Source: a virus
Taxonomy: Duplodnaviria; Caudoviricetes
Virus record (IMG/VR): IMGVR_UViG_3300025154_001556
Reading direction: 5' to 3' (one strand)
DNA length: 64,000 nt
Part shown: positions 12,488-44,985 of the stretch, piece by piece
Numbering within the stretch: position 1 is the first letter of the stretch
How the letters are laid out: the number at the start of each line of letters is the position of its first letter
Notes under the pieces: generated by a model
What the model saw: only the letters and a program-made list of their open reading frames with translations
Told to the model about the DNA's origin: nothing
The model's database searches: none
Position numbers and translations under genes: made by a program

Positions 12488-12523
12488 TATTTAGTTATAT
12501 GATCATGTGTTACGGAGGAATTA

Positions 12524-14200: not shown

Positions 14201-14212
14201 AGGAGTGAGACG

Positions 14213-15004
14213 ATGGGTTCAATTTTCGGACTGGCACTAACAAAAAATAATCACGTAAGGAATAAAACACTCGTAAGAAGTATTCTTTACTCGCTAATGT
14301 TGTCAGCCAAACAGGCTAAGGCGGAATCAGTCGGTTTGGCTTTGACAACAGACACTGGTGTAACTTTGATAAGAAAAGCTTGTGACGCAAAGGCTTTTTT
14401 TGACGATCCTTCAATTTCAAAGATTATCGATGAGTCGTTGTGTGTAGACGCTTCTTCAAAAAAATTACTTTCCGTGTTGGGGCATTGCCACACAGGTAAA
14501 GGAAATGAATCTATTGAATTGGAAGATATACATCCCGTACATCGAGATCGTGTTGTGGGAGCTTATTCCGGGTATATTTTTAATCCGGACGAAATTACAC
14601 GACCATTCAGTATAAAACGTAACGGCACGTATTCAGGTGAATTATTTTTCAGTTTAATATCCAGTTTATATAAAAAATATAAGCCCACTGTAAAATCACC
14701 ATTTACCATGGCCATGGAAGAAGCAGCTGAGACAGCGGTAGGCCCCTTAGCTGCAGCCTGTATGTGTACTGACAACCCACACATGTTGTGGCTTGCAAAA
14801 ACAAATTTATCCATATCGGTAAGAAATTACTATGAAACTGGTATGATATTATTTGCTGAATCAGATCTTTACTTGACCAGCGCGACTGTGGCATGGAGTT
14901 TAGGTGCCTATGAAATAATTCCTTTTGTACCTGACTCAATTTTAGGTATTGATTTGTTCTACAATGCCGTAGTTAGAAAAAAAGTGAATGCCAGAATCAT
15001 CTAG
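14213..15004 (+). CDS. class II glutamine amidotransferase-like (Ntn) protein, probably catalytically inactive
   Basis: MGSIFG start (no Cys2), VLGHCHT, HP..DRVVGAYSGYIFN parallel the GATase II pattern. Confidence 0.6.
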   Translation: MGSIFGLALTKNNHVRNKTLVRSILYSLMLSAKQAKAESVGLALTTDTGVTLIRKACDAKAFFDDPSISKIIDESLCVDASSKKLLSVLGHCHTGKGNESIELEDIHPVHRDRVVGAYSGYIFNPDEITRPFSIKRNGTYSGELFFSLISSLYKKYKPTVKSPFTMAMEEAAETAVGPLAAACMCTDNPHMLWLAKTNLSISVRNYYETGMILFAESDLYLTSATVAWSLGAYEIIPFVPDSILGIDLFYNAVVRKKVNARII

Positions 15005-15018
15005 TATAAGGAGAGTCC

Positions 15019-16380
15019 ATGTTAACCACAAGACAGATATATGAATTGAATCAGCTGTCTGATCAAGAAGATTTTAGCAGAGTAATTACTAAGATTAATT
15101 GTAACGGATTGCCTGTGGGTACGCCGTTTATAATGAGAAACTCAGATTTGGCAGTAACAACAGCAGAAAGGGATTATGGCATTATAATCATGAATCCTTG
15201 TCCAGTGGGGCAAGACTATCGATGCAATACTCTTGCAGAGGTAGCAGCAGAGGCAGTGACGGTAACCTCAGAGCCGTCTTTTCTGCATCTACACTATACA
15301 AAAGTGTCTAGCGACGCCAGTGTAACGGAGGATTTTACTGAGGCCTTTAATCACGCCTTAGCTGGAGGCGCGGCGACTGTATTTTTCAAAGATGTTCCAG
15401 CCGCTAACAAGGTTTTGTGTAATTTAATACCAGAATTCGCCGTGAAGTTTAAATATAATGGTATGCTTAGAACAAACGCTTTATCCTCTTCCGAAAAAAC
15501 AGAAAAAACAGTGCTTATGGTACAGTACTTTCATCCTAAACACTGTTGTGCAATATACTACACAGATAAAGTGGATGGTGTAATAATGAGCATATCCATG
15601 ATAATGCCAGAAATATCGGCAGCAAAAAATGCAGTCATACGGCCTATGTATATGTCGTTGTTTATAAGTAATTACCTCGACAATATAGTGTCTCTTGATG
15701 GTACAAAAATAACCTCGATCACCCCACTCATTTGCAATTATTACCATAAGTTTGTAAATGACTGTGGTTCTTCTATGGTAAGTGCGGCCAAACCAATAAA
15801 AAAGCAAACTCCAATTGCCGAAAAACGGCGAGCTATGGATGCGCTTGCTGATAGGATAGGTGTGTCAAGAACACCTAACCTAACTAAAACAGGCACAATA
15901 GATGCCGCCGACGTGCATTCTCTAAGTGGTAAAAAGTCTGTTTTCACTGTCAGCACGTCTGGCGCCTCATTGGATACCTTGAATACTTCATTTGCCGCAG
16001 CAGGAATTGATACAAACATCAACGCTGAATCAGTGGATAATACACATAAACCAGCTTATTCGCAATTTAAAGATGAGGTAAAAGGCAGTAGAGATGCTAC
16101 AGGCATTACTTACTATAAGGATGTCGTAGACGCGCCGGCACCTGAAATGGACATGGACTGGGAGTACATCAGAAAAAAAAGTACTCGTTGGGCTATGGAA
16201 GCGTTTTCTTTGCCCACCTCCAAAAGTGCCGTAGAAGAGGTGGCTAATTTTTTCGATGGTGATGATGATAGCGCCTACCCCACCAGCCCATCACTGAAAA
16301 AACCAAAAGTAAAAGGGAAAAAAGAGACTTACACTGTGGCGGTACCACCGCCAAAGGTTGTAAATGACTTAGATATTTAA
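15019..16380 (+). CDS. hypothetical protein
   Basis: 453 aa ORF, AGGAG RBS; low-complexity C-terminal third. Confidence 0.7.
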   Translation: MLTTRQIYELNQLSDQEDFSRVITKINCNGLPVGTPFIMRNSDLAVTTAERDYGIIIMNPCPVGQDYRCNTLAEVAAEAVTVTSEPSFLHLHYTKVSSDASVTEDFTEAFNHALAGGAATVFFKDVPAANKVLCNLIPEFAVKFKYNGMLRTNALSSSEKTEKTVLMVQYFHPKHCCAIYYTDKVDGVIMSISMIMPEISAAKNAVIRPMYMSLFISNYLDNIVSLDGTKITSITPLICNYYHKFVNDCGSSMVSAAKPIKKQTPIAEKRRAMDALADRIGVSRTPNLTKTGTIDAADVHSLSGKKSVFTVSTSGASLDTLNTSFAAAGIDTNINAESVDNTHKPAYSQFKDEVKGSRDATGITYYKDVVDAPAPEMDMDWEYIRKKSTRWAMEAFSLPTSKSAVEEVANFFDGDDDSAYPTSPSLKKPKVKGKKETYTVAVPPPKVVNDLDI

Positions 16381-16430
16381 GAATAAAGGGTACTTCAAGA
16401 TTAACCACTAATGTGGAGGATAATATATTT

Positions 16431-18287
16431 ATGTGCGGTATTATAGGTGCGGCCATTTTCGGCCCTAAAGCAGATAAAAATGAGGAAACAGCCAGACAGA
16501 AATCAATGATCTATCTGGTAACTCAATTGCTGCAAGAAACCAAAGTACGTGGTGAGGACGCAACTGGCATCGCCACATTATTCAGAAATGGCCTCTATAC
16601 CGGCTTGAAAATGGGAGTAGATTCTGAAGTATTTACGACACGGTATGGCAACGGGGAGGAAAACTACGAAGGCTACCTTCGCAGATGGCAATTAAACGCC
16701 AATCCAGCAGTAATGTGCCTTGGACATTGCCGTAAATCGTCCGTAGGTGGTAATTGGGATAATAAAAACAATCATCCCATACGTGTGCGAGACACAATAG
16801 GTGTGCATAATGGTACACTGAAAAACCATAATCAAATTTTTCAACAATTACAGTCTGGAAGAGACGGTACGGTGGACAGTGAAGCAATCATTCGTCTTCT
16901 TGGGCATTATTCCCAGAATGGGGCAGAGCCATTTACCACAAAAATGATTGATGAAGTAACCAGAAGACTGGATGGTACCTTTGCGGTGCTGGCATTTAAC
17001 GGTAATAATCCGTTCCAATTGGTTACTTTTAGAGATGGTAGACCAATGGAGTATGCTTTAATCAAGCCATTGAATATGCTGCTGGTTGCTTCGGAGCAAA
17101 AGTTCCTCAAGAGAGTCTTGATGGAATATAATAATATGGCCCGGTTGTACTCATTCAAAGAGTTTAAACCAATAATCGCCTCTGATGTAGAATTTGAGAT
17201 GTTAAGACATAATGGCCAGGCCATTTTTGATCTTACGCGGGAAGTAACAGACAAGACAAAAATCTTTGACTTATGTGAACTGGAAAATTTGCCGGTAGCA
17301 AAAATATGGAAGGTAGGTACAAAACCGCCGGAACATAACGTAAGTAGCGGCAATTTAACGACCAAATATAACGATGCGGTTAAACAGACACATCATCACA
17401 GTGGACATACAGAACAAAAGGCAAAGCCGGCAATCAGCTTGAAGGGTAAAGCAGGCTTTATCTGGATAAAGTCTTTAAAAGAATACAGGTGCGCTACCGA
17501 ATTTGGTAGCAGTGATCCGACTGTCGAAGAGGATAAAAAAACATTCGATCTGGATGTAGAGATTGAGACTTCTAAGGCTACTATTACAGTAGAGCCATCG
17601 CCAGTGCTTGGTGGAAATGTAGCGTTTACCGGCAAATTGAAGGAAACTGACAACGTGGAGAATCTGGTAAGTAATCCAGTGAAAGTACAGGATTTGTCTC
17701 CCGCAGCTGCCGGAAAAGCCGCCGATAAGGACAAAAATACCAAAACTGTTGATATGACAGTAGATCCCACGGCATTAGAAGAGGCAAACGAGGCGAGTAA
17801 AAACCTACCAACTCTGGAAAGTGATGAGGATGTTGGCGCAGCCTTGGAAATAGCTGATTTAAGGTCTTTACAAGCCTTACCGCTTCCGGCATTATGCAAC
17901 AGGGTACGAAGGAGTGCCTTTAAAAAGGGCTACTATGATGGCATGTTAAAAGCATATGAGTTGTTGGAGGTCTATACTGCACCTGTAAACCCGGTGGAAG
18001 AGCATACTAAAGATAAAATGGAACAAAAGCTTTTAAAAGCGCAGAAGCAGATAAGACTTTTAAAAGTAGTAATCCATTTGTTTTCAAAACTGGTAGACTC
18101 TTTGAAAAAGAATACCACCGGCACTATGTTTATGCGTATGACACAAGCAACGAACAAATTAGGCCTCGTAGCAGCGAAACAAGGGCTTACTCAGGAAGGG
18201 TTTGACAAATTGTTTACGCAGGGAGATTTACGAAGCAACGATAATCTTATAGCATTGAAAAATGCCATTGGCGATGAGGAGGAGTAG
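16431..18287 (+). CDS. class II glutamine amidotransferase (Ntn hydrolase) with long C-terminal extension
   Basis: MCGIIG start, RGEDATG, GHCRKSSVG, NNHPI, GVHNGTLKN, VDSEAI, RDGRPM. Confidence 0.9.
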   Translation: MCGIIGAAIFGPKADKNEETARQKSMIYLVTQLLQETKVRGEDATGIATLFRNGLYTGLKMGVDSEVFTTRYGNGEENYEGYLRRWQLNANPAVMCLGHCRKSSVGGNWDNKNNHPIRVRDTIGVHNGTLKNHNQIFQQLQSGRDGTVDSEAIIRLLGHYSQNGAEPFTTKMIDEVTRRLDGTFAVLAFNGNNPFQLVTFRDGRPMEYALIKPLNMLLVASEQKFLKRVLMEYNNMARLYSFKEFKPIIASDVEFEMLRHNGQAIFDLTREVTDKTKIFDLCELENLPVAKIWKVGTKPPEHNVSSGNLTTKYNDAVKQTHHHSGHTEQKAKPAISLKGKAGFIWIKSLKEYRCATEFGSSDPTVEEDKKTFDLDVEIETSKATITVEPSPVLGGNVAFTGKLKETDNVENLVSNPVKVQDLSPAAAGKAADKDKNTKTVDMTVDPTALEEANEASKNLPTLESDEDVGAALEIADLRSLQALPLPALCNRVRRSAFKKGYYDGMLKAYELLEVYTAPVNPVEEHTKDKMEQKLLKAQKQIRLLKVVIHLFSKLVDSLKKNTTGTMFMRMTQATNKLGLVAAKQGLTQEGFDKLFTQGDLRSNDNLIALKNAIGDEEE

Positions 18288-18292
18288 GTCGA

Positions 18293-19606
18293 ATGGTAAA
18301 TAAAAGTAGCCTAGTACTCATGGTGTCGCCCCAAATGGATAACAACAAGAAGGAAGACCGTAACGAGCACGGCCTTGTAAGAATGACTGCAAAAACACGA
18401 GCGTTGATGGGATTCAAGGAAGATACTGTTGAGCTCTGGAATGGAGAGTCAGATCTTACGAGAATAAAGTCCTCAACTGTGTTATCTATCTTTAAAGCTT
18501 TCTCCGCCGATATAGCGGCAGCGAAAGCTCTTGTAGAGAAGGGGGAACTTGACAAAGAGGCCATTTATAACGTAGCCTTTGTTACCACAAGAACATATCA
18601 ACGTATAATGGCTGACCACAAAAATGACAAGAACATATGGGTTACCGATGGTGTTGCTGACACCGTAATAGGTGCCGACCCAGAGTTTTTGTTGTTTACC
18701 AAAGAAGGGCTTGTAAGACATGCCAACAGTATAGCCCATCTCAAAAAAGATGGTTTAATAGGATTTGATGGGGCAATGGCAGAAATACGCCCTGATCCTG
18801 CTGTAACACCAGAGGGTTTGGTAAAGAGTATAAGTAGCATATTCCATAATGATGCATACACCAAACCCATCATGGACTTTGATTGGAAAAGTGGCGTTTA
18901 TCATAAGGACAAAAACCGCGATTACCCAATAGGTGGACACATCCATATTGGCAATCCCGCAAAGGTTGCAAGAATTTCTGCAGACGAAAGAGAGTTGTTT
19001 TTCAGAGTATTGAATAAAATTCTTGATGAGTTGTTGTCGTTGCCGATGATGCGCCTTGATGGGGAGGCTGGAACCCAACGCAGAACCAAATGCCAAATGG
19101 GTAACTACGGCTACTTTGGGGCCTATCGAGTACATGATGGTCGGTTGGAGTATCGAACTCTTTCCGGTTTATGGTTGGCCCACCCAACGCTTACAAAAAT
19201 AGTCATGGGCGTGGCCAAAGCAATAATTGATGACGTATATTACAAGGTTTATGAAAATCAGTTTGCAATGTCGTATATGTGCCCTAACAAATTTAAAGGG
19301 GTAAATGTATTAAAAGCAGACTTTGATTCATGGGATGGTATCCCCTTAGCCAAGGATATTGGCTGTGTAAGAACCTCCAAAGTAATGTTTGATTTAATCA
19401 ATAAATCAGACGCAAAAATTGTTGACAAAGCATTTGTTACCGACTGGTATACTACCATGCGAGGCCTATCTTCTTACGAAAAATATCGAAGATATATAGA
19501 TGATTTAAAAACACTGCTTTCTCGTCCTCTAAAAGAGCTGCAAAATATCAATACAGATATTAAAGCAGGTTGGCTGGACGGTGAAGAATTTTCAATTAAA
19601 CTTTAA
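18293..19606 (+). CDS. phiEco32-like COOH-NH2 ligase type 2 (copy 2)
   Basis: IGADPEFLL, GFDGAMAEIRP, IGGHIHIG, YGYFGAYR, LEYRTLSG. Confidence 0.85.
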   Translation: MVNKSSLVLMVSPQMDNNKKEDRNEHGLVRMTAKTRALMGFKEDTVELWNGESDLTRIKSSTVLSIFKAFSADIAAAKALVEKGELDKEAIYNVAFVTTRTYQRIMADHKNDKNIWVTDGVADTVIGADPEFLLFTKEGLVRHANSIAHLKKDGLIGFDGAMAEIRPDPAVTPEGLVKSISSIFHNDAYTKPIMDFDWKSGVYHKDKNRDYPIGGHIHIGNPAKVARISADERELFFRVLNKILDELLSLPMMRLDGEAGTQRRTKCQMGNYGYFGAYRVHDGRLEYRTLSGLWLAHPTLTKIVMGVAKAIIDDVYYKVYENQFAMSYMCPNKFKGVNVLKADFDSWDGIPLAKDIGCVRTSKVMFDLINKSDAKIVDKAFVTDWYTTMRGLSSYEKYRRYIDDLKTLLSRPLKELQNINTDIKAGWLDGEEFSIKL

Positions 19607-19621
19607 CAAGAGGTAAAAAAC

Positions 19622-29910: not shown

Positions 29911-30438
29911 GTGAATAAAGCACTGATCATTATAGATATGCTTAATGACTTCATCATGGAAAACGGCGCTTTATATTGTGGCAAAGCAGCTTCGGATATA
30001 GTAGCGCGGATAAAGGATAAATTGGAGTTGGCAAGAAAAAATAATGATGTGGTTATTTTTCTGTGCGATGCTCATAAATCGTACGATAAGGAATTTCAAC
30101 GTTTTCCAAAGCACGCTGTAATACATACAGTAGGTGCTCAAATAATTAACGATCTTTCCCCGGTGGAAAGAGGCCGCGAGTATGTTATTAAGAAAACGCG
30201 TTATAGTGGTTTCTATAATACCAATTTGAATGTGGTATTAAAATTAAATAATATAACACATGCGGAAGTTGTTGGTGTTTGTACCCACATCTGTGTGATG
30301 GACACGGTAGGGGGATTAGCCAACCGGGACATAGCTACTTTTATTGATAAGTCAGCTGTTGCTGATTTTGACAAGGCTGCTGCAGACGCCGCTCTCCTGC
30401 GTATGCAGTCTATATACGGAACAGTCGTGGTTCCGTAG
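29911..30438 (+). CDS. pncA: nicotinamidase (isochorismatase family)
   Basis: LIIIDMLNDF, GALY, D.H, FPKHA, KTRYSGF, VGVCTHICV (catalytic D, K, C); family alone is ambiguous but operon context supports PncA; GTG start. Confidence 0.85.
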   Translation: MNKALIIIDMLNDFIMENGALYCGKAASDIVARIKDKLELARKNNDVVIFLCDAHKSYDKEFQRFPKHAVIHTVGAQIINDLSPVERGREYVIKKTRYSGFYNTNLNVVLKLNNITHAEVVGVCTHICVMDTVGGLANRDIATFIDKSAVADFDKAAADAALLRMQSIYGTVVVP

Positions 30439-30451
30439 TTGTTTCTCCAAT

Positions 30452-30483
30452 GATGGGCGGGGTGGGAGACTACCCTGCCCATC
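30452..30483 (+). promoter_or_regulatory. GC-rich intergenic hairpin between pncA and the radical SAM gene
   Basis: GATGGGCGGGGTG / TACCCTGCCCATC stem with G-U pairs; no U tract, so it may be a processing or stabilising hairpin. Confidence 0.4.
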
Positions 30484-30499
30484 TCTTACGAGGACCATA

Positions 30500-31360
30500 A
30501 TGAAAAAGATAAGCACTTTATCTGTTGTAACCGGCACCAATAGCTGCAATGCAAAATGCCCATTTTGTATAGCCAGAATGACTCCGCAACAAAGTGCTAT
30601 GAACAACATCAATTATCGTAATTTGGACATAGCCTGTCGCTTGGCGGAAAAAGCCGGCGCTGTAACCGCACTAATAACTGGTAAAGGTGAACCTACCTTA
30701 TACCCAGATACCATCTCTTTCTACCTCACAAACCTCTCCAAGTACTTTCCAATCCTTGAATTACAAACCAACGGTTTGATACTCCCCGATGATAAATATA
30801 ATAAGTTTTTAAAAAGTTGGTACGGTCTTGGCCTTACAACAATATCCTTATCCATCGTACATTATAATGACTCCCGAAATAAGGAAATATACACTGGTAA
30901 TAGGGATTATATCAACTTACAATTGTTAATAAACAAGTTGCATAATTACGGATTTAGTGTTAGACTAAGTGTAATCGCGCTGAAAAATTATATAGATTCA
31001 CCGATGGAAATCGCCCGTATGATTAAATTTGCTAAGGATAATAAAGTTGCACAACTAACCATAAGACCTATGGTAGTTTATGAAGCAACGGCCAATAAAA
31101 AAGTTTTAAACTGGGCATTATCCCACACCATCGGCCCTAATTGGGAAGACATTGTTGCTAAAACACTAAGTAAAATAAAAAATACCTTCTTAATGAATCT
31201 TACTCATGGTGGTAAAGTATACGATGTCTCCGGACAAAATGTGTGTTTCAATACTTGTTTAACTTTAAACCCAAACGAGGATGAATTGAGGCAATTAATT
31301 TATTTTCCTGATGGAAAAATAACCTATGATTGGAGATATAAGGGAGCTAGAATAATATGA
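30500..31360 (+). CDS. radical SAM protein
   Basis: CNAKCPFC (CxxxCxxC), TGKGEPTL, LQTNG, SLS; AGGA RBS before ATG 30500. Confidence 0.88.
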   Translation: MKKISTLSVVTGTNSCNAKCPFCIARMTPQQSAMNNINYRNLDIACRLAEKAGAVTALITGKGEPTLYPDTISFYLTNLSKYFPILELQTNGLILPDDKYNKFLKSWYGLGLTTISLSIVHYNDSRNKEIYTGNRDYINLQLLINKLHNYGFSVRLSVIALKNYIDSPMEIARMIKFAKDNKVAQLTIRPMVVYEATANKKVLNWALSHTIGPNWEDIVAKTLSKIKNTFLMNLTHGGKVYDVSGQNVCFNTCLTLNPNEDELRQLIYFPDGKITYDWRYKGARII

Positions 31361-32676
31361 AATCAACGGCAGACTTTCACATGAGACCATTAATAAACAG
31401 TTTATTGGATAATGACGCGTATACATTTTATATGTGCCAATTCATACTAAGCAGATTTAAAGGTACCATTGCTAAATATAAATACAAATGCCGTAATGGT
31501 AACGGTTTTCCTGCTGACATTAGTTATGATCAAAAACACTCATTCGTAGCAATGATGAATAGTCAAATAGACTCTTTCTGTAAATTACGATTTAATGAAA
31601 CGGAAATTCGATTTTTACGGGGGACAGGAAAATTTAAAGAGTACTTCTTAGATTTTCTTAGAACACTTACTTTGGATAGATCTCATATAAAAGCTACACT
31701 TGTAGGTGGTGCTTTATATATTGAGATAGAAGGCCCAATAGAACAGGTAATCTGGTATGAAACACCGGTGCTTGCTTTAAATAGCGAGCTGTATTATCGT
31801 TTTTATGATATCACACTGGACAAATATATTGACAATCAAGCCAACTTTAAACCAGCGTATTTATTTACAATAAAAAATAGTGAGAGACATGCAAATAGTT
31901 TAAATGTGGCTAGGAAAAAGTTGCTCGCTAAAATAGAGAAGATACGTAAAACCAATCTACCCGGTTTCAATATCATTGATTTTGGAACAAGAAGGAGGGC
32001 TGCATTTGATTGGCATGAGAAGGTAGTGGCCACACTTCACAAGGAAATACCTGATGTTTTAAAAGGTACCTCTAACTGTTATTTGGCCATGAAATATGGT
32101 TTGCCTATGATCGGTACTATGGCACATCAAATGTTTCAAATGTATCAACAAATTACTTCTGCCTATGATAGCCAGATAGACTTGCTGACTGCTTGGCGAG
32201 AGGAGTATGGGGATAAATTATTAATTGCTTTAAGTGATATATTTGGCTTTGAAGCCTTCCTATCCGATTTTAGGCACTTTGCTGATCAATACTCTGGGGT
32301 TCGCCATGACAGCGGTAACCCTTATATTTGGTGTGACAAATTGTTGCAGCTTTATAATAAGCGGAATATTGACGCAAAGAGTAAGACTGCTGTTTTTAGT
32401 GACGGCTTAGATGTGGATAAAGCCCTCAATCTTTACGCCACTTTTTACAACAAAATAAATGTAGCCATTGCTATTGGCACCAACCTTACAAATGATACAG
32501 ATGTCGAAGCATTACAAATTGTAATTAAACTCGTTGAGTTTAACCACGGCCCGGTAGCAAAAGTGAGTGACTCTCCTGGAAAAGGGATGTGCGAGAGTAA
32601 AGAGTATGAGGAATACATAAGCTACATTGTAAGCCGAAAAGAAAAGGAGTACAAAGAATGGCTAGAAAACAAGTAG
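31357..32676 (+). CDS. pncB: nicotinate phosphoribosyltransferase
   Basis: SLLDNDAYTFYMCQ, IWYETPVL, DFGTRRR, GTSN, GTMAHQ, ALSD, GVRHDSG, FSDGL, IGTNLTND, IVIKL, AKVSDSPGK. Confidence 0.95.
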   Translation: MKSTADFHMRPLINSLLDNDAYTFYMCQFILSRFKGTIAKYKYKCRNGNGFPADISYDQKHSFVAMMNSQIDSFCKLRFNETEIRFLRGTGKFKEYFLDFLRTLTLDRSHIKATLVGGALYIEIEGPIEQVIWYETPVLALNSELYYRFYDITLDKYIDNQANFKPAYLFTIKNSERHANSLNVARKKLLAKIEKIRKTNLPGFNIIDFGTRRRAAFDWHEKVVATLHKEIPDVLKGTSNCYLAMKYGLPMIGTMAHQMFQMYQQITSAYDSQIDLLTAWREEYGDKLLIALSDIFGFEAFLSDFRHFADQYSGVRHDSGNPYIWCDKLLQLYNKRNIDAKSKTAVFSDGLDVDKALNLYATFYNKINVAIAIGTNLTNDTDVEALQIVIKLVEFNHGPVAKVSDSPGKGMCESKEYEEYISYIVSRKEKEYKEWLENK

Positions 32677-33266
32677 CCTTATTTGGTGGGGCATTTGATC
32701 CTGTAACATTAGGACATATATTGGTAGCAAAGATGATGCTCGGGGTAGCAAATTTTGATAAGATATGGTTCTTGCCGAGCTATCATTCCTGGAATGATAA
32801 AAATATGCAGGACGCCAATCACCGTTTAAACATGTTAAAGTTAACATGTAATGACATTTCTGATAAACGTATAAATGTTTGTTCCTACGAGATAGCCAAC
32901 AAGTTGATAGAACCAACAGTTGTTGTTTTAGATCGCTTGGCCTCATATATCGATGCGGATTTTTTCTTTTGTATCGGAACAGATCAAGCCGCAGAGATTG
33001 AAACTTGGCATGAGTGGGAACGTTTGATAAGTCAGTACTCATTTGTAGTTATGGAGCGTCCAGGTAGCCCGTATGTAGAGGGCAGTTGGTATACTATCGG
33101 AAAACATAAATTTGTTAAATGTACCTCCGGCATAGGCAACGTGTCTTCTACTGAGGTACGTAAGGAAATTGCCAGAGAGGGTATATCATACAATGTGACA
33201 CAATCTGTAATGCAATATATTAAAGATAATAACCTTTATAAGGGGGCTTTGAAAATAAATGCTTAG
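32658..33266 (+). CDS. nadD: nicotinate-nucleotide adenylyltransferase
   Basis: ALFGGAFDPVTLGH, HRLNML, FCIGTD, W..WE.L, VSSTEVR, V..YI..NNLY. Confidence 0.92.
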   Translation: MARKQVALFGGAFDPVTLGHILVAKMMLGVANFDKIWFLPSYHSWNDKNMQDANHRLNMLKLTCNDISDKRINVCSYEIANKLIEPTVVVLDRLASYIDADFFFCIGTDQAAEIETWHEWERLISQYSFVVMERPGSPYVEGSWYTIGKHKFVKCTSGIGNVSSTEVRKEIAREGISYNVTQSVMQYIKDNNLYKGALKINA

Positions 33267-34089
33267 TATTAGTGCAGAGTACAATAAAATGTATAACAAC
33301 ATTTTGGCCGAGGGTATGGAGTACGTGCGAAGGAGCCGTCTGGAATCTTTGGTGATTGGTATTTCAGGTGGTATAGATAGTGCCTTAGTGGCTGCCTTGG
33401 CACGCGTTATTTGTGACGAGACGGGTATTACCCTTATAGGCAGAAGTATGCCTATTGTAACAAATAAACCGGATGAAATAGCACGCGCTTCCGCCATTGG
33501 TAAATGCTTTTGTGATGACTTTGAGACAGTATCCTTGGATGATGTCTACAATAATCTGTATAAATCCATATCAAATCCGGCCAGGCATGATATCACTACA
33601 AAAGCAGAGAGGATTCGCCGTGGTAATGTAAAAGCAAGAACTCGCATGATACTACTGTATGATTTGGCCCATCTTAATAACGGTCTTGTTTTGTCAACAG
33701 ATAATTATACGGAGCTGCTGCTTGGCTTTTGGACAATGCATGGTGATGTTGGCGACTATGGCATGATACAGAATCTGTGGAAAACTGAAGTGTACGGGCT
33801 GGCGGCTTGGCTCTGTAAAAAGTATGCCATGAACGACGCCGTGGATAAAGCAGAAGCACTTAACGCGTGTATAACAGCGGTACCGACTGATGGTCTGGGT
33901 GTAACCGACAGTGATTTCGATCAACTCGGCCTTCGTCGCTACACAGACATCGACAACGTCCTACTCAAATACATCACAGATGGTGTGGAAGAGGATGATA
34001 GTCCGGTTGTGCTTCGCTACAAAAATACGCATTACAAAAGGAATAACCCAATAAATCTTACACGAAATAAGATTTTGGGAATAATGTAA
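33259..34089 (+). CDS. nadE: ammonia-dependent NAD+ synthetase
   Basis: GISGGIDSALVA, GNVKARTRM..LY, STDNYTE..LG..TMHGD, LWKTEVY.LA, PTDGL; no glutaminase domain. Confidence 0.93.
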   Translation: MLSISAEYNKMYNNILAEGMEYVRRSRLESLVIGISGGIDSALVAALARVICDETGITLIGRSMPIVTNKPDEIARASAIGKCFCDDFETVSLDDVYNNLYKSISNPARHDITTKAERIRRGNVKARTRMILLYDLAHLNNGLVLSTDNYTELLLGFWTMHGDVGDYGMIQNLWKTEVYGLAAWLCKKYAMNDAVDKAEALNACITAVPTDGLGVTDSDFDQLGLRRYTDIDNVLLKYITDGVEEDDSPVVLRYKNTHYKRNNPINLTRNKILGIM

Positions 34090-34120: not shown

Positions 34121-35371
34121 ATGGGCTCTTTCAATGTAGCTTGCTCAATTAGTAATGTAAGTATTAATGCTGGCCAACGTATAGCATTTATTCCGTTGGT
34201 AATAAAGCGGCATTTAGCCAAAGATGGTAAACTACCAATACCCAACCAGATGCTCATTGAGCCCGACTCATTATTAACTCCTTTTTGTTTACCAATCTTT
34301 GGTAAATATAATGATTATGGTTCGATAGAACACATAGAAAAGGATGCAAACACCGAGGCCATTGAAGCATATATGGGTATGCCCATAGAATCCTTTGTTG
34401 ATTGCATTACTTGTGGTAGAGAGCCTCATGATTATTTCGGCGATTTATTTAAACATTTTGCCACCAATGGAACTCGTGGTGTAGTTAGAGATTATCGAGT
34501 TCATTTTGATGGTAAATACCTGGAACAAGTGGGTTTTAAACGACTTGACATACCGGGAGAAGCCTGGTATGATTATATTTATGAGGACTTTCCTTACCTG
34601 GTTAAACTCATAGCTGGCTATGATCAACGACCTATTTACCCTAATAATGGACATCGTATTATGGGTATAGGCTTTGAAGTATACGATCATACTGGAAGTG
34701 TGGTTTATACGGGCAGTCATTACGACGCAAAGTCGGCCCTACCCAAAGCATTCTTAGCGCTTACTGACTACTTTATTTACGTTAATAAAGAAGACCAGGA
34801 AAAAGTTAAGTTGCTTAAAAGTATGTCTGGTATGTTTATACATAGTGACATCTGGGATTATATGATAAACATGCCAGGGCGTGAAAAAGAGCTGTTTAAC
34901 CTAAGCTTTGACGAATTACAACAAAAGATAATAGCCTATGATAACGGTGAGGAGGACTACTTTACACATACTGTGCCGTCTGTTGAGAAACAGCTTACAG
35001 AGCATAACATGTTATGTGCAATACTGGAAAAGGTGGAAGACTTTGTACCGAATCAACCTGGAAGCACACTTAAAATATCTCAACCATTCTTTGTAGATCC
35101 TATAAAGGCGGTTGTTACTGAAAACTATTTTCATAGATTCTTTAACAATTGGCCGTACTTTGCCCCAGTCTATCGCGCGGCAATAAAGGATGACAGTATA
35201 AAGGAATACTTCATGAATTATTGTAGCTTTTATTGGGAGATGTATTCCACCAACAGATTCTTCTTTCCTGGTATGAATGGTGAACAGTCTGGTAATACAG
35301 AAGCGTCATTGCGTCTTGCAAGGCAAACAGTTAAACTTTTAGAGGAGAGGCAAAAAGAAGAAAATGAGTGA
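34121..35371 (+). CDS. hypothetical protein
   Basis: 416 aa ORF with AAGGAG RBS. Confidence 0.75.
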   Translation: MGSFNVACSISNVSINAGQRIAFIPLVIKRHLAKDGKLPIPNQMLIEPDSLLTPFCLPIFGKYNDYGSIEHIEKDANTEAIEAYMGMPIESFVDCITCGREPHDYFGDLFKHFATNGTRGVVRDYRVHFDGKYLEQVGFKRLDIPGEAWYDYIYEDFPYLVKLIAGYDQRPIYPNNGHRIMGIGFEVYDHTGSVVYTGSHYDAKSALPKAFLALTDYFIYVNKEDQEKVKLLKSMSGMFIHSDIWDYMINMPGREKELFNLSFDELQQKIIAYDNGEEDYFTHTVPSVEKQLTEHNMLCAILEKVEDFVPNQPGSTLKISQPFFVDPIKAVVTENYFHRFFNNWPYFAPVYRAAIKDDSIKEYFMNYCSFYWEMYSTNRFFFPGMNGEQSGNTEASLRLARQTVKLLEERQKEENE

Positions 35372-40860: not shown

Positions 40861-42006
40861 TTAATTTGCATATGTAATAAAACCTGATGTGAAGTTAGCA
40901 CAACCTATGCTCTTCCAGTTTGTTCTAGAACTAATTTGGGTGGGAGTAGGCTTATCTACTATGTCACCCAAAGCTAGTGTTCCAGTCGTATTATAACCCC
41001 AGCCCCATAGTGTACCATCAGTTCTAATTGCTAATACATGGCTATAACCTAAGGCCACCGTTTTCCAGTCTGTCATAGCGCCCACTTGTATAGGAGATGA
41101 TTTATCCTCAAAAGTACCGATACCTAAATTACCACGAAGATTTCGTCCCCAAGACCACAAGCTACCATCAGTTTTAATTGCAACCGTAAAATTGAAACCA
41201 CCCAATACCGATTTCCAATCAGTAAGTGACCCAAGTTGCACAGGTGAACTTGTTGGTGTTGTTGTACCATCTCCAAGCTGTCCTAAGGCGTTATCACCCC
41301 ATAGCCAAAGGGAACCATCATTTTTAATTGCCATGGTAGCGTAGTACCCACAATTTATCAATGCCCAATCTGTGTCAGAGCCAACTTGAATTGGGGATGA
41401 TTTAGACACAACCGTCCCATCACCTAATTGACCGCTATCATTAAAACCCCAAGTCCAAATAGTTCCATCTGTTTTAAGGGCCGCAGTATGGTATGTACCA
41501 CAGGAAATATGCTGCCAATTAGTGAGAGATCCTACTTGTATTGGAGATGATGTATTAACTATGCTATTGTTACCAAGTTGGCCATAACCATTATAACCCC
41601 AAGCCCATAGTGAGTTATCTTCTTTTATAGCCGCTAGATGGACACGCCCGCTAGCCAGTGTATGCCAATCAGTAAGATTTCCTACTTGTATTGGGGATGA
41701 TTTATCTACCAAAGTGCTATCCCCTAATTGACCGTAATGGTTTCTACCCCATGACCACAAGGTACCATCAGCTTTAATTGCAGAAAATTGTCTGTAACCG
41801 CCTGCAATTAGTTTCCAATTATTAAAACCACCCACTTGAATTGGAGATGATTTGTGTACTTGTGTGCTATCGCCTATGGCGCCGAATTCGTTATCACCGG
41901 ATGTAAATAAATTACCAAAGTCAAATAAATCTCTCCGGGTGAACAAGTCATTAAAATCTACTACCTGATCATTATAAGTAAATTTATAGCCTGTTGGATT
42001 TGACAT
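40861..42006 (-). CDS. RCC1/BLIP-II repeat beta-propeller protein 3
   Basis: About seven ~52 aa repeats KSSPIQVG.LTDW..(G)..H..AIK.DGTLW.WG.N..GQLGD. Confidence 0.9.
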   Translation of the reverse strand: MSNPTGYKFTYNDQVVDFNDLFTRRDLFDFGNLFTSGDNEFGAIGDSTQVHKSSPIQVGGFNNWKLIAGGYRQFSAIKADGTLWSWGRNHYGQLGDSTLVDKSSPIQVGNLTDWHTLASGRVHLAAIKEDNSLWAWGYNGYGQLGNNSIVNTSSPIQVGSLTNWQHISCGTYHTAALKTDGTIWTWGFNDSGQLGDGTVVSKSSPIQVGSDTDWALINCGYYATMAIKNDGSLWLWGDNALGQLGDGTTTPTSSPVQLGSLTDWKSVLGGFNFTVAIKTDGSLWSWGRNLRGNLGIGTFEDKSSPIQVGAMTDWKTVALGYSHVLAIRTDGTLWGWGYNTTGTLALGDIVDKPTPTQISSRTNWKSIGCANFTSGFITYAN

Positions 42007-42014
42007 TTTATCTC

Positions 42015-43193
42015 CTAATAATTTAAATCTGTTATAGCTATTACGCTGGTATTACATCCGAAAATGTTTTTCCAATTATTTAGACCCCCGACTTGGATTG
42101 GAGATGACTTATGTACATTTGTGTTGTCCCCAAGTTGCCCATCGGTATTAAAGCCCCAAGTCCAAATAGTGCCGTCCGTTTTTAAAGCTGTGGTATAACT
42201 ATATCCACAAGATACTTTTTTCCAATTACTAAGGGAGCCTACTTGTACTGGTGAAGAGTAGTTTGCTGTAAGCACAGAACCCAAACCCAGCTGTCCGTAG
42301 TTATTAGCACCCCAAGTCCACAAGGTACCATCGGTTTTTATGGCTGCTGCATGATATTGCCCCGCCTCACAGCTAGCCCAGTCGGTCGAGGAGCCTATCT
42401 GTACCGGTGATGATTTACCCACACTAGTAGCATCTCCAAGTTGGCCACCATTATTATAGCCCCAGGACCATAAGGTACCATCCAATTTTAAAGCAAGGGT
42501 ATATAATTGGCCACAAGAAACTTGCTTCCAATCAGTTAAACTCCCTACCTGAATTGGAGAGGATTTACTATCCAAAGTCCCATCCGCTAACTGGCCGTCT
42601 GTATTACTTCCCCACATCCAGAGTGCGCCGCTCGAATTTATAGCTGCGCCATGCCCACCCCCACTGGCTATCGATATCCAATTAGTAAGCGCCCCTATCT
42701 GAATTGGGGATGATTTAGAAATAGTTGTACCATCTGCAAGTTGTCCGACAGTATTAGATCCGCCGATAGACCATATGGTGCCATCAGTTTTTAAAGCTAA
42801 CATAAAAATATGCCCAGAAGCAACACTTGCCCAATCCGTAAGAGCCCCAATTTGTTGCGGAGATATGGATCTTGTGGTTGTACCATCACCCAACTGTCCG
42901 TATACATTGTTGCCCCAAGTCCACAAAGTGTTGTCATTCTTAGTGGCTATCATTTGCTGCCACCCACCAGCAATGTTTTTCCAATCTACCAAGGAACCGA
43001 GTTGTATTGGTGAAGATTTACCAATTAAAGTACTGTCACCTAATTGCCCACTAGCATTTTGTCCCCAAGTCCATATACTAGCCCTTTTTGAGGACGGTAC
43101 TAATTGTGGGTAAACACGTAACAAATAATCTTTTGTGACAAAGTTACCGCAGTCAGAACCATCTGCTCTTTTATAGTTGGTCGTTATTGTCAT
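42015..43193 (-). CDS. RCC1/BLIP-II repeat beta-propeller protein 2
   Basis: Same repeat consensus. Confidence 0.9.
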   Translation of the reverse strand: MTITTNYKRADGSDCGNFVTKDYLLRVYPQLVPSSKRASIWTWGQNASGQLGDSTLIGKSSPIQLGSLVDWKNIAGGWQQMIATKNDNTLWTWGNNVYGQLGDGTTTRSISPQQIGALTDWASVASGHIFMLALKTDGTIWSIGGSNTVGQLADGTTISKSSPIQIGALTNWISIASGGGHGAAINSSGALWMWGSNTDGQLADGTLDSKSSPIQVGSLTDWKQVSCGQLYTLALKLDGTLWSWGYNNGGQLGDATSVGKSSPVQIGSSTDWASCEAGQYHAAAIKTDGTLWTWGANNYGQLGLGSVLTANYSSPVQVGSLSNWKKVSCGYSYTTALKTDGTIWTWGFNTDGQLGDNTNVHKSSPIQVGGLNNWKNIFGCNTSVIAITDLNY

Positions 43194-43208
43194 CTTTACA
43201 CCTCGGTA

Positions 43209-43841
43209 TTATAGTAGTACATCAAGAGAATCATCTATTGCAGTAAGAGTATTTAAATCAACCGCGTTATTTATTGATGTAACTATGCCAGATTCCCATT
43301 CAAATTGCGCTTGTATATGTGCTAATACAGCAGATACCAGAACTTGTAGATCTGCAAGAGATAATACAAGCCATGTATTACCAAACTTCCAATTAACACC
43401 AGCAACACCAAGTAGTAATGCCTGTGAGTACATATTGCGTGTCTCCCTATCAGTTGCAACTCCTATTTCTTGGTCTTGAAGTGTGATTTTTGTACCGCTA
43501 ACCTCTTTCTGCCAACGAAGATTAGCCACTTTTGCTTTAAGTTCATTACGTACAGCTTCAATAGGTCTATCTACAACGGTGTAGCTGGCGATAGCCTTAT
43601 CCGCTTGTATCGTCCAATTAGGCCCGGCTAGTTGCTGAATCCTGTGGTCATAATTTACAGCAGTAAATTCAACAGGAAGTATCTTTACAGTATCACTAAC
43701 TGAGTATGCTGCTGAATCTTCCGTAATAGTTGGAAGTGTAAAATTTAAACCTAGCTCATCTGTTAAAACAGATTGAAACATATTCTGGTTCCACCAGGTA
43801 GGCCCTAATATCACTTTATTATTAGATACTAATACTTTCAT
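43209..43841 (-). CDS. DUF4376-like phage tail-fibre accessory protein
   Basis: LRWQKEVSG, TDRETR, WK..N.W..LS.ADL..L..AV.AHIQAQF.WE. Confidence 0.7.
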   Translation of the reverse strand: MKVLVSNNKVILGPTWWNQNMFQSVLTDELGLNFTLPTITEDSAAYSVSDTVKILPVEFTAVNYDHRIQQLAGPNWTIQADKAIASYTVVDRPIEAVRNELKAKVANLRWQKEVSGTKITLQDQEIGVATDRETRNMYSQALLLGVAGVNWKFGNTWLVLSLADLQVLVSAVLAHIQAQFEWESGIVTSINNAVDLNTLTAIDDSLDVLL

Positions 43842-43854
43842 TTATATCCTCCAT

Positions 43855-44985
43855 TTAGTTTCCGTATGTAACAACAAGAGGTGTTGCTCCACCAGCCACC
43901 TGTTTCCAATTTGTTAATGAGCCTACTTGTATAGGAGAGGACTTATGTACAATTGTGCCATCTCCCAACTGGCCGTAGTTATTAGGGCCCCAAGACCACA
44001 AAGTGCCATCGGTCTTAGTAGCAAAAGAATTGGATGACCAAGCGGAGGTCTGTTTCCAATCAGTTAAACCCCCTACCTGAACAGGGGATGATTTATCAAC
44101 AATAGTACCGTCGCCTATTTGACCGTAGTAGTTTAACCCCCATCCCCAAAGAGTGCCATCTGTCTTAATGGCTAAAACGTGTAACCAACCAGCTGAAAGA
44201 TTTTTCCAATCCGTGAGTGCTCCTATCTGTACCGGGGAGGATTTACGTGTAGTAGTACCATCTCCTAATACACCTACATAAGCATATCCCCAAGCCCACA
44301 AAGTACCATCGGTCTTTATGGCATGGGAAGATAAACTACTACAAGCAACCTCTTTCCAATCGGTTAAAGTTCCAATTTGTATAGGAGATGACTTTCCTAC
44401 CACAGTATCATCACCAAGCTGCCCATAAGTATTTCTACCCCAAGACCATAAAGTACCGTCGGTCTTTATAGCCAAAACGTGTGAATCGTATGTAATTACA
44501 TCTTTCCAATCTGTTAAACTGCCTACTTGTATTGGAGATGATTTAGGGGCAATTGTTCCATCGCCCAACTGACCGTAGCTATTAGCACCCCAAGACCATA
44601 AGGTACCATCAGTTTTTATAGCTAGTGCATTTATAGAACCAACTTTTATAGACAACCAATCTGTTAAACTACCTACCTGTATCGGGGATGATTTAGGCGC
44701 AATTGTTCCATCACCTAGCTGTCCGTTATTATTGTAGCCCCACATCCATAACGTACCGTCAGTTTTGATACCAGCAGAGACATTACCAATAGAACTTACT
44801 TGTTTCCAATTAGTAAGTGCCCCTATCTGAATTGGGGATGATTTAGAAATAGTGGAAGAATCACCCATTTGCCCAAAGTTATTGTAACCCCAAGAAAATA
44901 AAGTATGTCCTACAAATCTATCTATCAGCTCATAATCAGTGAAGAAGAGGTTGTCTAACTCACCTTCTAATGTTCTGAATCCCAT
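43855..44985 (-). CDS. RCC1/BLIP-II repeat beta-propeller protein 1
   Basis: Same repeat consensus. Confidence 0.9.
   Translation of the reverse strand: MGFRTLEGELDNLFFTDYELIDRFVGHTLFSWGYNNFGQMGDSSTISKSSPIQIGALTNWKQVSSIGNVSAGIKTDGTLWMWGYNNNGQLGDGTIAPKSSPIQVGSLTDWLSIKVGSINALAIKTDGTLWSWGANSYGQLGDGTIAPKSSPIQVGSLTDWKDVITYDSHVLAIKTDGTLWSWGRNTYGQLGDDTVVGKSSPIQIGTLTDWKEVACSSLSSHAIKTDGTLWAWGYAYVGVLGDGTTTRKSSPVQIGALTDWKNLSAGWLHVLAIKTDGTLWGWGLNYYGQIGDGTIVDKSSPVQVGGLTDWKQTSAWSSNSFATKTDGTLWSWGPNNYGQLGDGTIVHKSSPIQVGSLTNWKQVAGGATPLVVTYGN

What the first reader, a model, noticed from the sequence alone, without database searches (positions are those of the whole stretch)
29911..34089. Complete phage-encoded deamidating NAD+ salvage pathway pncA-pncB-nadD-nadE
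Four enzymes in pathway order (nicotinamide to nicotinate to NaMN to NaAD to NAD+) are encoded together, with pncB, nadD and nadE overlapping as in a coupled operon. Phage NAD reconstitution pathways described so far use the amidated route (NARP1: Adps plus Namat; NARP2: Nampt plus Nmnat, as in KVP40-type NadV/NatV). A full Preiss-Handler route would rebuild NAD+ from the nicotinamide released by Thoeris/SIR2/TIR-type NADases and could be a distinct anti-defence pathway. It needs PRPP and ammonia, which host or phage glutaminases might supply (speculative).
Basis: partly seen in the sequence, partly recalled or inferred. Interest (0 to 1): 0.9.

Follow-up and report, generated by a model that had tools for sequence, protein, structure and literature searches.

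The report
Jumbo-phage nicotinamide-to-NAD operon with extra enzyme

Summary
The four genes exist at the stated coordinates and in pathway order. All carry their catalytic motifs; PncB, NadD and NadE pass curated family cut-offs, and PncA's best solved match is B. subtilis nicotinamidase. The block is kept under purifying selection in four related phages of about 160-310 kb.

The genes are not contiguous. A 286-aa radical SAM gene (30500-31360) lies between pncA and pncB, and it is this gene that overlaps pncB. A DUF8385 gene follows nadE.

The contig is viral: an IMG/VR record with jumbo-phage gene content, whose near-complete 234-kb relative has a large terminase.

The novelty claim is overstated. 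Li et al. 2024 (Microbiome, PMC11662467) already described "NAD-jumbo phages" with pncB-nadD-nadE clusters. In IMG/VR, 413 stretches encode PncB relatives, and 12 of the best 80 have all four genes within 10 kb.

I found no experimental test of this route as an anti-defence pathway; that reading stays plausible but unproven.

The radical SAM family recurs in NAD gene clusters of DPANN archaea, CPR bacteria and phages. It joined PncB at least four separate times, and its reaction is unknown. Earlier notes of this scan reached the same conclusion on other DNA.

The parts
29911..30438 (+). pncA-like nicotinamidase (175 aa, GTG start). Catalytic D9/K95/C128 and metal ligands D53/H55/H68.
   Evidence: PF00857 E 1.4e-33. 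Best PDB match is 5ZN8, B. subtilis PncA, E 1.5e-25, with the triad and DxH...H columns aligned. 91% identical in the 234-kb relative, dN/dS 0.11.
30452..30483 (+). 14-bp GC-rich hairpin between pncA and the radical SAM gene, with no U tract after it.
   Evidence: MFE -34.2 kcal/mol for 30430-30510, z -4.67, 0 of 200 shuffles fold as well. In the relative both stem changes keep pairing as G.U, and the 55%-identity phage has an analogous hairpin of different sequence.
30500..31360 (+). Radical SAM enzyme (286 aa; CNAKCPFC and GKGEPTL motifs). Its stop overlaps the pncB start by 4 nt. Function unknown.
   Evidence: PF04055 E 1.2e-11. No specific NCBIfam model passes: MoaA 49 bits against 284, viperin 33.5 against 180. 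Family has 504 representatives at E<=1e-30. AF2 model pLDDT 86.8; nearest folds are MoaA (TM 0.73) and viperin (TM about 0.65). Sits within NAD gene clusters elsewhere.
31357..32676 (+). pncB, nicotinate phosphoribosyltransferase (439 aa). An invariant His (H257, in GTMAH) lies where Salmonella PncB is recalled to carry its phospho-His.
   Evidence: NF003704 417.3 bits (cut-off 379) and TIGR01514 341.2 (cut-off 269.6). PDB 1YIR E 4.5e-65, with GTMAH aligned to GTMAH. H257 is invariant in alignment A2.
32658..33266 (+). nadD, nicotinate-mononucleotide adenylyltransferase (202 aa; GGAFDPVTLGH and SSTEVR motifs). Overlaps pncB by 19 nt.
   Evidence: TIGR00482 144.2 bits (cut-off 112.45). PF01467 E 2.4e-19. 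Motifs read from the translation.
33259..34089 (+). nadE, ammonia-dependent NAD+ synthetase (276 aa; SGGIDS PP-loop; no glutaminase domain). Overlaps nadD by 8 nt.
   Evidence: TIGR00552 128.2 bits (cut-off 63.65). PF02540 E 5.4e-38. phrog_11189 'NAD synthetase' E 2e-28.
34121..35371 (+). DUF8385-family protein (416 aa) of unknown function, starting 31 nt after the nadE stop. In two relatives it overlaps nadE.
   Evidence: Precomputed PF28363 on it and its homologues. Conserved directly after nadE in four phages. dN/dS 0.17. Not linked to NAD genes in a distant homologue's contig.

Best explanation
This is a functional operon of a groundwater jumbo phage, roughly 235 kb in size. It rebuilds NAD+ from free nicotinamide by the deamidated (Preiss-Handler) route.

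1. PncA hydrolyses nicotinamide to nicotinate and NH3.
2. PncB joins nicotinate to host PRPP, driven by ATP, to give NaMN.
3. NadD adenylates NaMN to NaAD.
4. Ammonia-dependent NadE amidates NaAD to NAD+.

The last three genes, together with an upstream radical SAM gene, are translationally coupled. pncA precedes them behind a conserved hairpin, and a DUF8385 gene follows nadE.

The most likely benefit is keeping the infected cell's NAD+ pool up when it is being drained. The drain could be a NADase-type defence, which releases exactly the nicotinamide that this route consumes. It could also be the demands of a long jumbo-phage infection.

Shown here: gene identity, catalytic motifs, conservation, purifying selection and viral origin. 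Inferred: enzyme activities, flux, timing and the anti-defence benefit. The radical SAM step is unknown. My best guess is a nucleotide-directed radical reaction on a pyridine nucleotide or a breakdown product of one.
For: - Family assignments above curated cut-offs for PncB, NadD and NadE.
- PncA matches B. subtilis nicotinamidase over its full length, with the catalytic triad and metal site conserved.
- PncB carries a conserved His in the GTMAH motif.
- The same gene order occurs in four phages at 42-91% identity, with dN/dS 0.11-0.17.
- Viral origin: an IMG/VR record; PHROG matches to phage RNA ligase, Ro60 and helicase families; Pfam hits to a fused RNA-polymerase-like protein and phiEco32-type ligases; and a large terminase in the 234-kb, 89%-complete relative.
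- The locus sits among RNA-repair genes: a CCA-adding enzyme, Ro60 with a Y-RNA-like match, and an RNA ligase. Iyer et al. 2021 discuss RNA repair and NAD+ synthesis together as counter-defence adaptations of jumbo phages.
- Another phage-like contig places an anti-Pycsar Apyc1 gene inside its NAD cluster.
- NARP2 and NARP3 show that simple salvage routes can defeat NADase defences.
Against: - No enzyme assay, expression data or infection data exist, and no RNA run holds the stretch.
- Many bacteria have the same four enzymes yet are still depleted by NADases, so a copy of the host pathway may not outrun a defence.
- The route needs four steps, PRPP and three ATP-consuming enzymes. No phage PRPP synthetase was found.
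- No known anti-defence gene lies in this window.
- The host is unknown, and so is its defence repertoire.
- Two conserved operon genes (radical SAM, DUF8385) have no place in the canonical pathway, so the product may not be plain NAD+.
Confidence: 0.7

Rival explanations
1. The operon is an ordinary auxiliary metabolic module. It tops up NAD+ for the large biosynthetic demand of a jumbo-phage infection, or complements a host that lacks nicotinamide or nicotinate salvage. It has no specific relation to NADase defences.
For: Li et al. 2024 interpret such clusters this way and report phage-host complementarity of NAD routes. The set is widespread in large viral contigs. No anti-defence gene was identified in the window.
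Against: No NAD-dependent ligase, macro domain or NUDIX was found in this record or its 234-kb relative, which removes some obvious phage NAD consumers. The operon starts from nicotinamide, the NADase product, and sits in an RNA-repair, counter-defence-like neighbourhood.
Confidence: 0.35
2. Because of the coupled radical SAM enzyme, the operon does not simply make NAD+. It might make or recycle a modified pyridine nucleotide, for example a radical-modified NAD/NaAD analogue. Alternatively it might convert another NADase product, such as ADP-ribose or a cyclic isomer.
For: - The radical SAM gene overlaps pncB and is under purifying selection.
- Its family lies within 3 kb of PncA/PncB/NadD/NadE homologues for 87 of 106 hits, 101 of them on the same strand.
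- It joined PncB at least four separate times on the PncB tree.
- Its nearest folds, MoaA and viperin, both act on nucleoside triphosphates.
Against: No substrate is known. In viral contigs only about 8 of 42 family members sit within 6 kb of NAD genes, so the enzyme can work without them. Many phage Preiss-Handler clusters lack it and carry DUF5662 or an NMNAT-like gene in the same slot.
Confidence: 0.15
3. The contig is cellular DNA, or a prophage flank, mislabelled as viral, so these are ordinary host NAD genes.
For: Some 'phage' records with pncB really are bacterial chromosome; for example 'Acinetobacter phage MD-2021a' carries serB, psd and phoBR next to pncB. The window itself holds no capsid, portal or tail gene that I could identify.
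Against: - No tRNA or rRNA in 64 kb.
- Gene content is typical of jumbo phages.
- The syntenic relative is a 234-kb viral record, 89% complete, with a TerL (phrog_2, E 2.7e-26).
- PncB's closest relatives outside the phage clade are at most 47% identical.
- On the tree it nests among viral PncBs.
Confidence: 0.03

Closest known systems
'NAD-jumbo phages' with Preiss-Handler clusters (Li et al. 2024, Microbiome, PMC11662467; e.g. Kuafu_71 pncB-nadD-nadE)
   Same: A jumbo-size phage carrying clustered pncB, nadD and nadE, with pncA also noted in that paper. Predicted to make NAD+ on its own. Bioinformatic evidence only.
   Different: Those phages come from animal and human guts with Bacteroidota hosts; this one is from groundwater and soil. 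That paper never mentions a radical SAM gene (0 occurrences), whereas here one is coupled to pncB. I could not compare sequences with Kuafu phages.
NARP2 (Nampt + Nmnat; KVP40-type NadV/NatV), the experimentally shown anti-defence salvage route
   Same: Phage-encoded. Starts from nicotinamide and PRPP and ends in NAD+.
   Different: NARP2 takes two amidated steps through NMN. This operon takes four steps through nicotinate, NaMN and NaAD. The PRTase here is a PncB equivalog, not Nampt. There is no functional proof here.
NARP1 (Adps + Namat) and NARP3 (PnuC + NadR)
   Same: Phage pathways that restore NAD+ after depletion.
   Different: NARP1 recycles ADP-ribose through a PRPS-like enzyme, and no PRPS-like gene was found here. 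NARP3 imports nicotinamide riboside. In this window the Pfam scan returned only a sub-threshold AAA_28 (NadR-kinase-like) hit, in an intein-split kinase. PnuC was not specifically searched for.
Bacterial PncA-PncB-NadD-NadE salvage (E. coli/B. subtilis type)
   Same: The same four enzyme families, with the same motifs and the same chemistry.
   Different: Cellular genes are usually scattered or under NrtR/NiaR/NadR control. Here they form one coupled phage operon with two additional genes.
MoaA (GTP 3',8-cyclase) and viperin, as nearest relatives of the radical SAM gene
   Same: Partial TIM-barrel radical SAM fold of about 290 aa with an N-terminal CxxxCxxC.
   Different: 14-20% identity, and scores far below the family cut-offs. 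Only one invariant C-terminal Cys (C249), so no MoaA-type second cluster. It also has its own invariant C-terminal motifs (YD..GQN.C, R..I..P.G...DW...GA).

Membership tests
Preiss-Handler / deamidating NAD+ salvage pathway | Nicotinamidase: isochorismatase fold with an Asp-Lys-Cys triad and an Asp/His/His metal site | tested here: met
   D9, K95, C128 and D53, H55, H68 align with B. subtilis PncA 5ZN8. However, the E. coli-type PncA equivalog model NF008623 scores only 27.7 bits against 174.
Preiss-Handler / deamidating NAD+ salvage pathway | Nicotinate phosphoribosyltransferase (PncB type, with the His of the phospho-His motif) | tested here: met
   NF003704 417.3 > 379 and TIGR01514 341.2 > 269.6. 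H257 in GTMAH is invariant and aligned in 1YIR. Its identity with the Salmonella phospho-His is from memory.
Preiss-Handler / deamidating NAD+ salvage pathway | NadD-type NaMN adenylyltransferase with (H/T)xGH and ISSTxxR motifs | tested here: met
   TIGR00482 144.2 > 112.45. TLGH and SSTEVR are present in the translation. NaMN-versus-NMN preference is not testable here.
Preiss-Handler / deamidating NAD+ salvage pathway | NAD+ synthetase with an SGGxDS PP-loop | tested here: met
   TIGR00552 128.2 > 63.65. SGGIDS is present. At 276 aa it has no glutaminase domain.
Preiss-Handler / deamidating NAD+ salvage pathway | The four activities convert nicotinamide to NAD+ | not testable with these tools
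   Needs enzyme assays or complementation.
Phage NAD+ reconstitution pathways (NARP) as anti-defence systems | Encoded by a phage | tested here: met
   IMG/VR record; jumbo-phage gene content; TerL in the syntenic 234-kb relative.
Phage NAD+ reconstitution pathways (NARP) as anti-defence systems | Restores NAD+ and phage growth in cells carrying NADase defences | not testable with these tools
   No experiment was found in the literature searches for the deamidated route.
Phage NAD+ reconstitution pathways (NARP) as anti-defence systems | Component families of NARP1 (PRPS-like Adps, Namat), NARP2 (Nampt) or NARP3 (PnuC, NadR) | tested here: not met
   No PRPS N-domain in this record or its relative. 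The PRTase is a PncB equivalog. Only a sub-threshold AAA_28 hit (20.8 bits against 27) in an intein-split kinase, with no NCBIfam hit. PnuC was not specifically searched for.
NAD-jumbo phage (Li et al. 2024) | Phage genome >200 kb with at least one complete NAD+ synthesis pathway | tested here: met
   This record is a 77-kb fragment, 29% complete. Identical proteins occur on a 236,830-bp contig, and the syntenic relative is 234 kb. The pathway is complete in the window.
MoaA / viperin (for the radical SAM gene) | Family-specific profile score, and for MoaA a second three-Cys cluster | tested here: not met
   moaA 49.2 bits against 284 and viperin 33.5 against 180. Only C249 is invariant in the C-terminal half. 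Fold similarity only, TM 0.65-0.76.

The most novel reading that the evidence does not exclude
The radical SAM enzyme coupled to pncB may catalyse an NAD-linked reaction that is in no known pathway. If so, this operon is an extended NAD module rather than plain Preiss-Handler salvage. As a whole it could be a fourth, deamidated NAD+ reconstitution route that defeats NADase defences. Supporting observations: the enzyme has a MoaA/viperin-like fold; it sits in NAD(P) gene clusters of DPANN archaea, CPR bacteria, Obscuribacterales, Planctomycetota and large phages; and it was joined to PncB at least four separate times.
Probability: 0.3. Interest if true: 0.85.

Novelty: new variant of a known kind. 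Interest (0 to 1): 0.55.

Why it matters
Many bacterial defences, including Thoeris, DSR, SIR2-HerA and RES-type systems, kill by destroying NAD+. The phage answers shown by experiment so far all use amidated intermediates.

The deamidated route is abundant in large phages but has only been catalogued. A direct test would show whether it is a real fourth counter-measure or just metabolic padding.

The operon also gives a compact, selectable context for working out what the NAD-associated radical SAM family does. No radical step is known in NAD metabolism, and the same family is part of the NAD gene set of ultra-small archaea and bacteria.

Tried and rejected
- **NAD riboswitches.** An Rfam scan of the whole window at gathering score found nothing. 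A permissive scan of 25.2-31 kb found only a YrlA-like match, so no NAD riboswitch was seen there.
- **Promoters and terminators.** The sigma-70 and intrinsic-terminator scan gave counts no different from shuffles, so operon boundaries rest on spacing and overlaps only.
- **Host donor.** No close cellular relative of PncB exists (at most 47% identity), so no host could be inferred. The window has no tRNAs.
- **Other NAD-related genes in this record and the 234-kb relative.** None found for NAD-dependent ligase, PRPP synthetase, NUDIX or macro domain. The own record is only 29% complete.
- **DUF8385 protein.** No Pfam hit at E<=0.1 in my scans, nothing useful from the ESM Atlas, and its stored model is poor (pLDDT 0.37). 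A distant homologue is not near NAD genes. Function left open.
- **Intein-split kinase as a NadR-like ribosylnicotinamide kinase.** The AAA_28 hit is below threshold, there is no NCBIfam hit, and no local match to the AAA_28 proteins of cellular NAD clusters. Rejected as evidence.
- **Literature on the radical SAM family.** Two full-text searches that paired 'radical SAM' with NadD/NadE/DPANN or with NAD-salvage/CPR terms found nothing relevant.
- **RNA evidence.** No RNA run holds the stretch, and read laying was not used.
- **'Acinetobacter phage MD-2021a' as an isolate precedent.** Rejected, because the record is bacterial chromosome.
- **PncB tree.** The careful tree search did not finish in the time allowed, so the quick tree was used.

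Full report
**Observation**

The interval 29911-34089 holds five co-oriented ORFs, not four.

- 29911-30438 encodes a 175-aa isochorismatase-family protein (PF00857, E 1.4e-33). Its best solved relative is 5ZN8, matched over the full length at E 1.5e-25. PMC13398362 identifies 5ZN8 as B. subtilis nicotinamidase PncA. The Asp-Lys-Cys triad (D9, K95, C128) and the Asp/His/His metal ligands typical of nicotinamidases (D53, H55, H68) are aligned and conserved.
- 31357-32676 is PncB. It scores above the curated cut-offs of two NCBIfam models (417 against 379; 341 against 270). It keeps an invariant His in the GTMAH motif.
- 32658-33266 is NadD (TIGR00482, 144 against 112), with TLGH and SSTEVR motifs.
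- 33259-34089 is a single-domain, hence ammonia-dependent, NadE (TIGR00552, 128 against 64), with the SGGIDS loop.

It encodes a 286-aa radical SAM protein with motifs CNAKCPFC and GKGEPTL. It has its own GAGGA ribosome-binding site, and its stop overlaps the pncB start by 4 nt.

pncA is separated from this gene by 61 nt that fold into a 14-bp hairpin (z -4.67). A 416-aa DUF8385 protein follows nadE after 31 nt.

**Is the block real and selected?**

The block PncA-rSAM-PncB-NadD-NadE-DUF8385 recurs in the same order in three further large phage contigs:
- a 234-kb IMG/VR record;
- a 157-kb contig;
- a lineage whose contigs reach 308 kb.

In each it is flanked by the same Ro60, ATP-grasp and RNA-ligase genes.

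Against the 234-kb relative, dN/dS is 0.11-0.17 for PncA, rSAM, PncB, NadD and DUF8385. NadE is 78% identical, with saturated dS.

The hairpin is conserved too. Both stem changes in the relative keep pairing as G.U, and the more distant phage has an analogous hairpin of different sequence.

**Is it a phage?**

- The window is part of a 77-kb IMG/VR record that CheckV rates 29% complete.
- Identical proteins occur on a contig of 236,830 bp.
- The window has no tRNA and no Rfam match at gathering score.
- Its content is typical of jumbo phages. It includes a fused beta/beta'-like RNA polymerase, two phiEco32-type COOH-NH2 ligases with a glutamine amidotransferase and an R2K ATP-grasp, a sigma-70 region-2 protein, and RuvB. 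It also includes a CCA-adding enzyme, Ro60, an RNA ligase, RCC1-repeat proteins, DNA methyltransferases and a ClpB-like ATPase.
- The syntenic 234-kb relative is 89% complete and encodes a large terminase (phrog_2, E 2.7e-26).
- The stretch is held at full length by runs from nine groundwater and soil studies, so this is not a gut phage.

**How it most likely works**

By established biochemistry of the four families, the route runs as follows:
1. Nicotinamide is hydrolysed to nicotinate and NH3 (PncA).
2. Nicotinate, PRPP and ATP give NaMN (PncB).
3. NaMN and ATP give NaAD (NadD).
4. NaAD, ATP and NH3 give NAD+ (NadE).

The ammonia released in the first step equals the ammonia needed in the last. 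The amidotransferase 12 kb upstream sits beside the phiEco32-type ligases and probably works with them; nothing links it to NadE.

No PRPP synthetase was found in this record or its relative, so PRPP must come from the host.

Nicotinamide is the base released by TIR, SIR2 and related NADases. The operon could therefore recover NAD+ during a defence response, as NARP2 and NARP3 do by amidated routes.

Circumstantial support for a counter-defence role:
- The locus lies in an RNA-repair neighbourhood. Iyer et al. 2021 discuss RNA repair and NAD+ synthesis together as counter-defence adaptations of jumbo phages.
- An unrelated phage-like contig carries an Apyc1 gene inside its NAD cluster.

Against it:
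- Hosts with the same four enzymes are still depleted by NADases.
- The route is long and costly.
- Nothing has been tested.

General NAD+ supply for a long infection is therefore a serious rival.

**What is already known**

Li et al. 2024 (PMC11662467) describe 174 "NAD-jumbo phages" with complete salvage or Preiss-Handler pathways. They name a pncB-nadD-nadE cluster (Kuafu_71) and a phage whose Preiss-Handler route complements a host that has only de novo synthesis. That paper does not mention a radical SAM gene.

The papers on NARP1/2 and NARP3 do not treat the deamidated route. A search for NARP4 or NARP5 found none.

My own survey of IMG/VR found 413 stretches encoding PncB relatives. Of the best 80, within 10 kb:
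- 55 have NadE;
- 35 have PncA;
- 12 have all four genes, many in the same order.

Among deposited phage genomes the gene is rare. It occurs in Agrobacterium phage Atu_ph07, Sinorhizobium phage Phosso, the huge phages of the LR7565xx series and human-faecal contigs. One "Acinetobacter phage" record is really bacterial chromosome.

The four-gene finding is thus a new member of a described kind.

**The extra enzyme**

The radical SAM protein belongs to a tight family. Mean column identity is 53% across 26 sequences, and 504 cluster representatives match at E<=1e-30. No specific Pfam or NCBIfam model covers it.

The family occurs in DPANN archaea, CPR bacteria, Obscuribacterales, Planctomycetota, Acidobacteriota, Chloroflexota and many large viral contigs.

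In 127 family loci I found 106 homologues of PncA, PncB, NadD or NadE. Of these, 87 lie within 3 kb and 101 are on the same strand.

In the 115 family loci whose neighbours I clustered, the commonest neighbour families within 6 kb are:

| Neighbour | Loci |
|---|---|
| NUDIX | 43 |
| NadE or NadE-NadD fusions | 41 |
| Type II phosphoribosyltransferase | 39 |
| PncA | 37 |
| NAD kinase | 35 |
| PLP-fold protein (directly downstream in 27) | 28 |
| AAA_28 kinase | 15 |
| NadA | 13 |
| ADP-ribosylglycohydrolase | 12 |
| PnuC | 9 |

On a PncB tree the window's PncB nests among viral PncBs without the radical SAM neighbour. Well-supported branches force at least four separate changes of that linkage (quick tree). 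This argues for a functional tie rather than simple co-inheritance.

The AlphaFold model (pLDDT 86.8) is closest to MoaA (TM 0.73-0.76) and viperin (about 0.65), both of which act on nucleoside triphosphates. The family lacks MoaA's second cluster, because only C249 is invariant in the C-terminal half.

In viral contigs only about 8 of 42 copies lie near NAD genes. Other phage Preiss-Handler clusters carry DUF5662 or an NMNAT-like gene in the same slot.

The reaction is unknown. Earlier notes of this scan reached the same conclusion on other genomes, and I reproduced their main claims independently here.

**Verdict**

- The pathway assignment is sound.
- The claim of a previously unseen phage pathway does not hold.
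- The anti-defence role is a reasonable, untested hypothesis.
- The unexplained radical SAM and DUF8385 genes make this operon a new variant rather than a plain copy.

Noticed in passing
window 25965-26081 (+), upstream of 26604-27989: A Y-RNA-like (YrlA, RF02553) match at 34.9 bits, E 6.4e-5, below the gathering score of 69. It lies in the gene-poor gap just before a Ro60/TROVE gene, which suggests a phage Ro60-Y RNA module next to a CCA-adding enzyme and an RNA ligase.
   Followed up: partly
window 58888-60462 (-): A small P-loop kinase split in its Walker A loop (GTHG|SGKS) by an intein carrying Hint and LAGLIDADG homing-endonuclease domains. The host protein's AAA_28 (NadR-kinase-like) hit is below threshold, and it did not match the AAA_28 proteins of cellular NAD clusters.
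   Followed up: partly
window 54141-57758 (-): A 1205-aa hybrid sensor histidine kinase on a phage, with solute-binding domain, PAS, GAF, HisKA, HATPase and receiver domains. A related phage contig (L255) has one as well.
   Followed up: no
window 5062-8478 (+): A 1138-aa protein with weak matches to both Rpb2 domain 6 and Rpb1 domain 2, i.e. a fused beta/beta'-like multisubunit RNA polymerase of the kind seen in some large phages.
   Followed up: no
window 11333-21195 (+): Two phiEco32-type COOH-NH2 ligases, a class II glutamine amidotransferase, an R2K/RimK-like ATP-grasp and an acetyltransferase lie in one block. This resembles a peptide-tagging or amidoligase system. Nothing links it to NadE.
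   Followed up: no
window 40861-44985 (-): Three RCC1-repeat proteins on the minus strand, separated once by a 210-aa ORF (43209-43841). They match PHROG 'regulator of chromosome condensation' families, with weaker tail-protein hits.
   Followed up: no
L232:9432-9998, and the same slot in L228, L234, L241, L242, L245-L247, L249 and L251: In another group of viral Preiss-Handler clusters the gene between PncA and PncB is a DUF5662 protein (E 3.1e-32) instead of the radical SAM enzyme. DUF5662 also sits in the NAD cluster of L007. This is a second uncharacterised family tied to phage NAD operons.
   Followed up: partly
L253 (CAKLQH020000008.1, 'Acinetobacter phage MD-2021a'): This 'phage' record carries serB, dtd, psd, phoB/phoR and other housekeeping genes around pncB. 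It looks like bacterial chromosome and should not be counted as a phage with pncB.
   Followed up: partly
L008/L009 (archaeal contig, 156 kb): An archaeal NAD cluster reads NadA-NadB-NMNAT/NAD-kinase fusion-NADAR-radical SAM (this family)-two unknowns-a second 457-aa radical SAM-NUDIX/NrtR.
   Followed up: no
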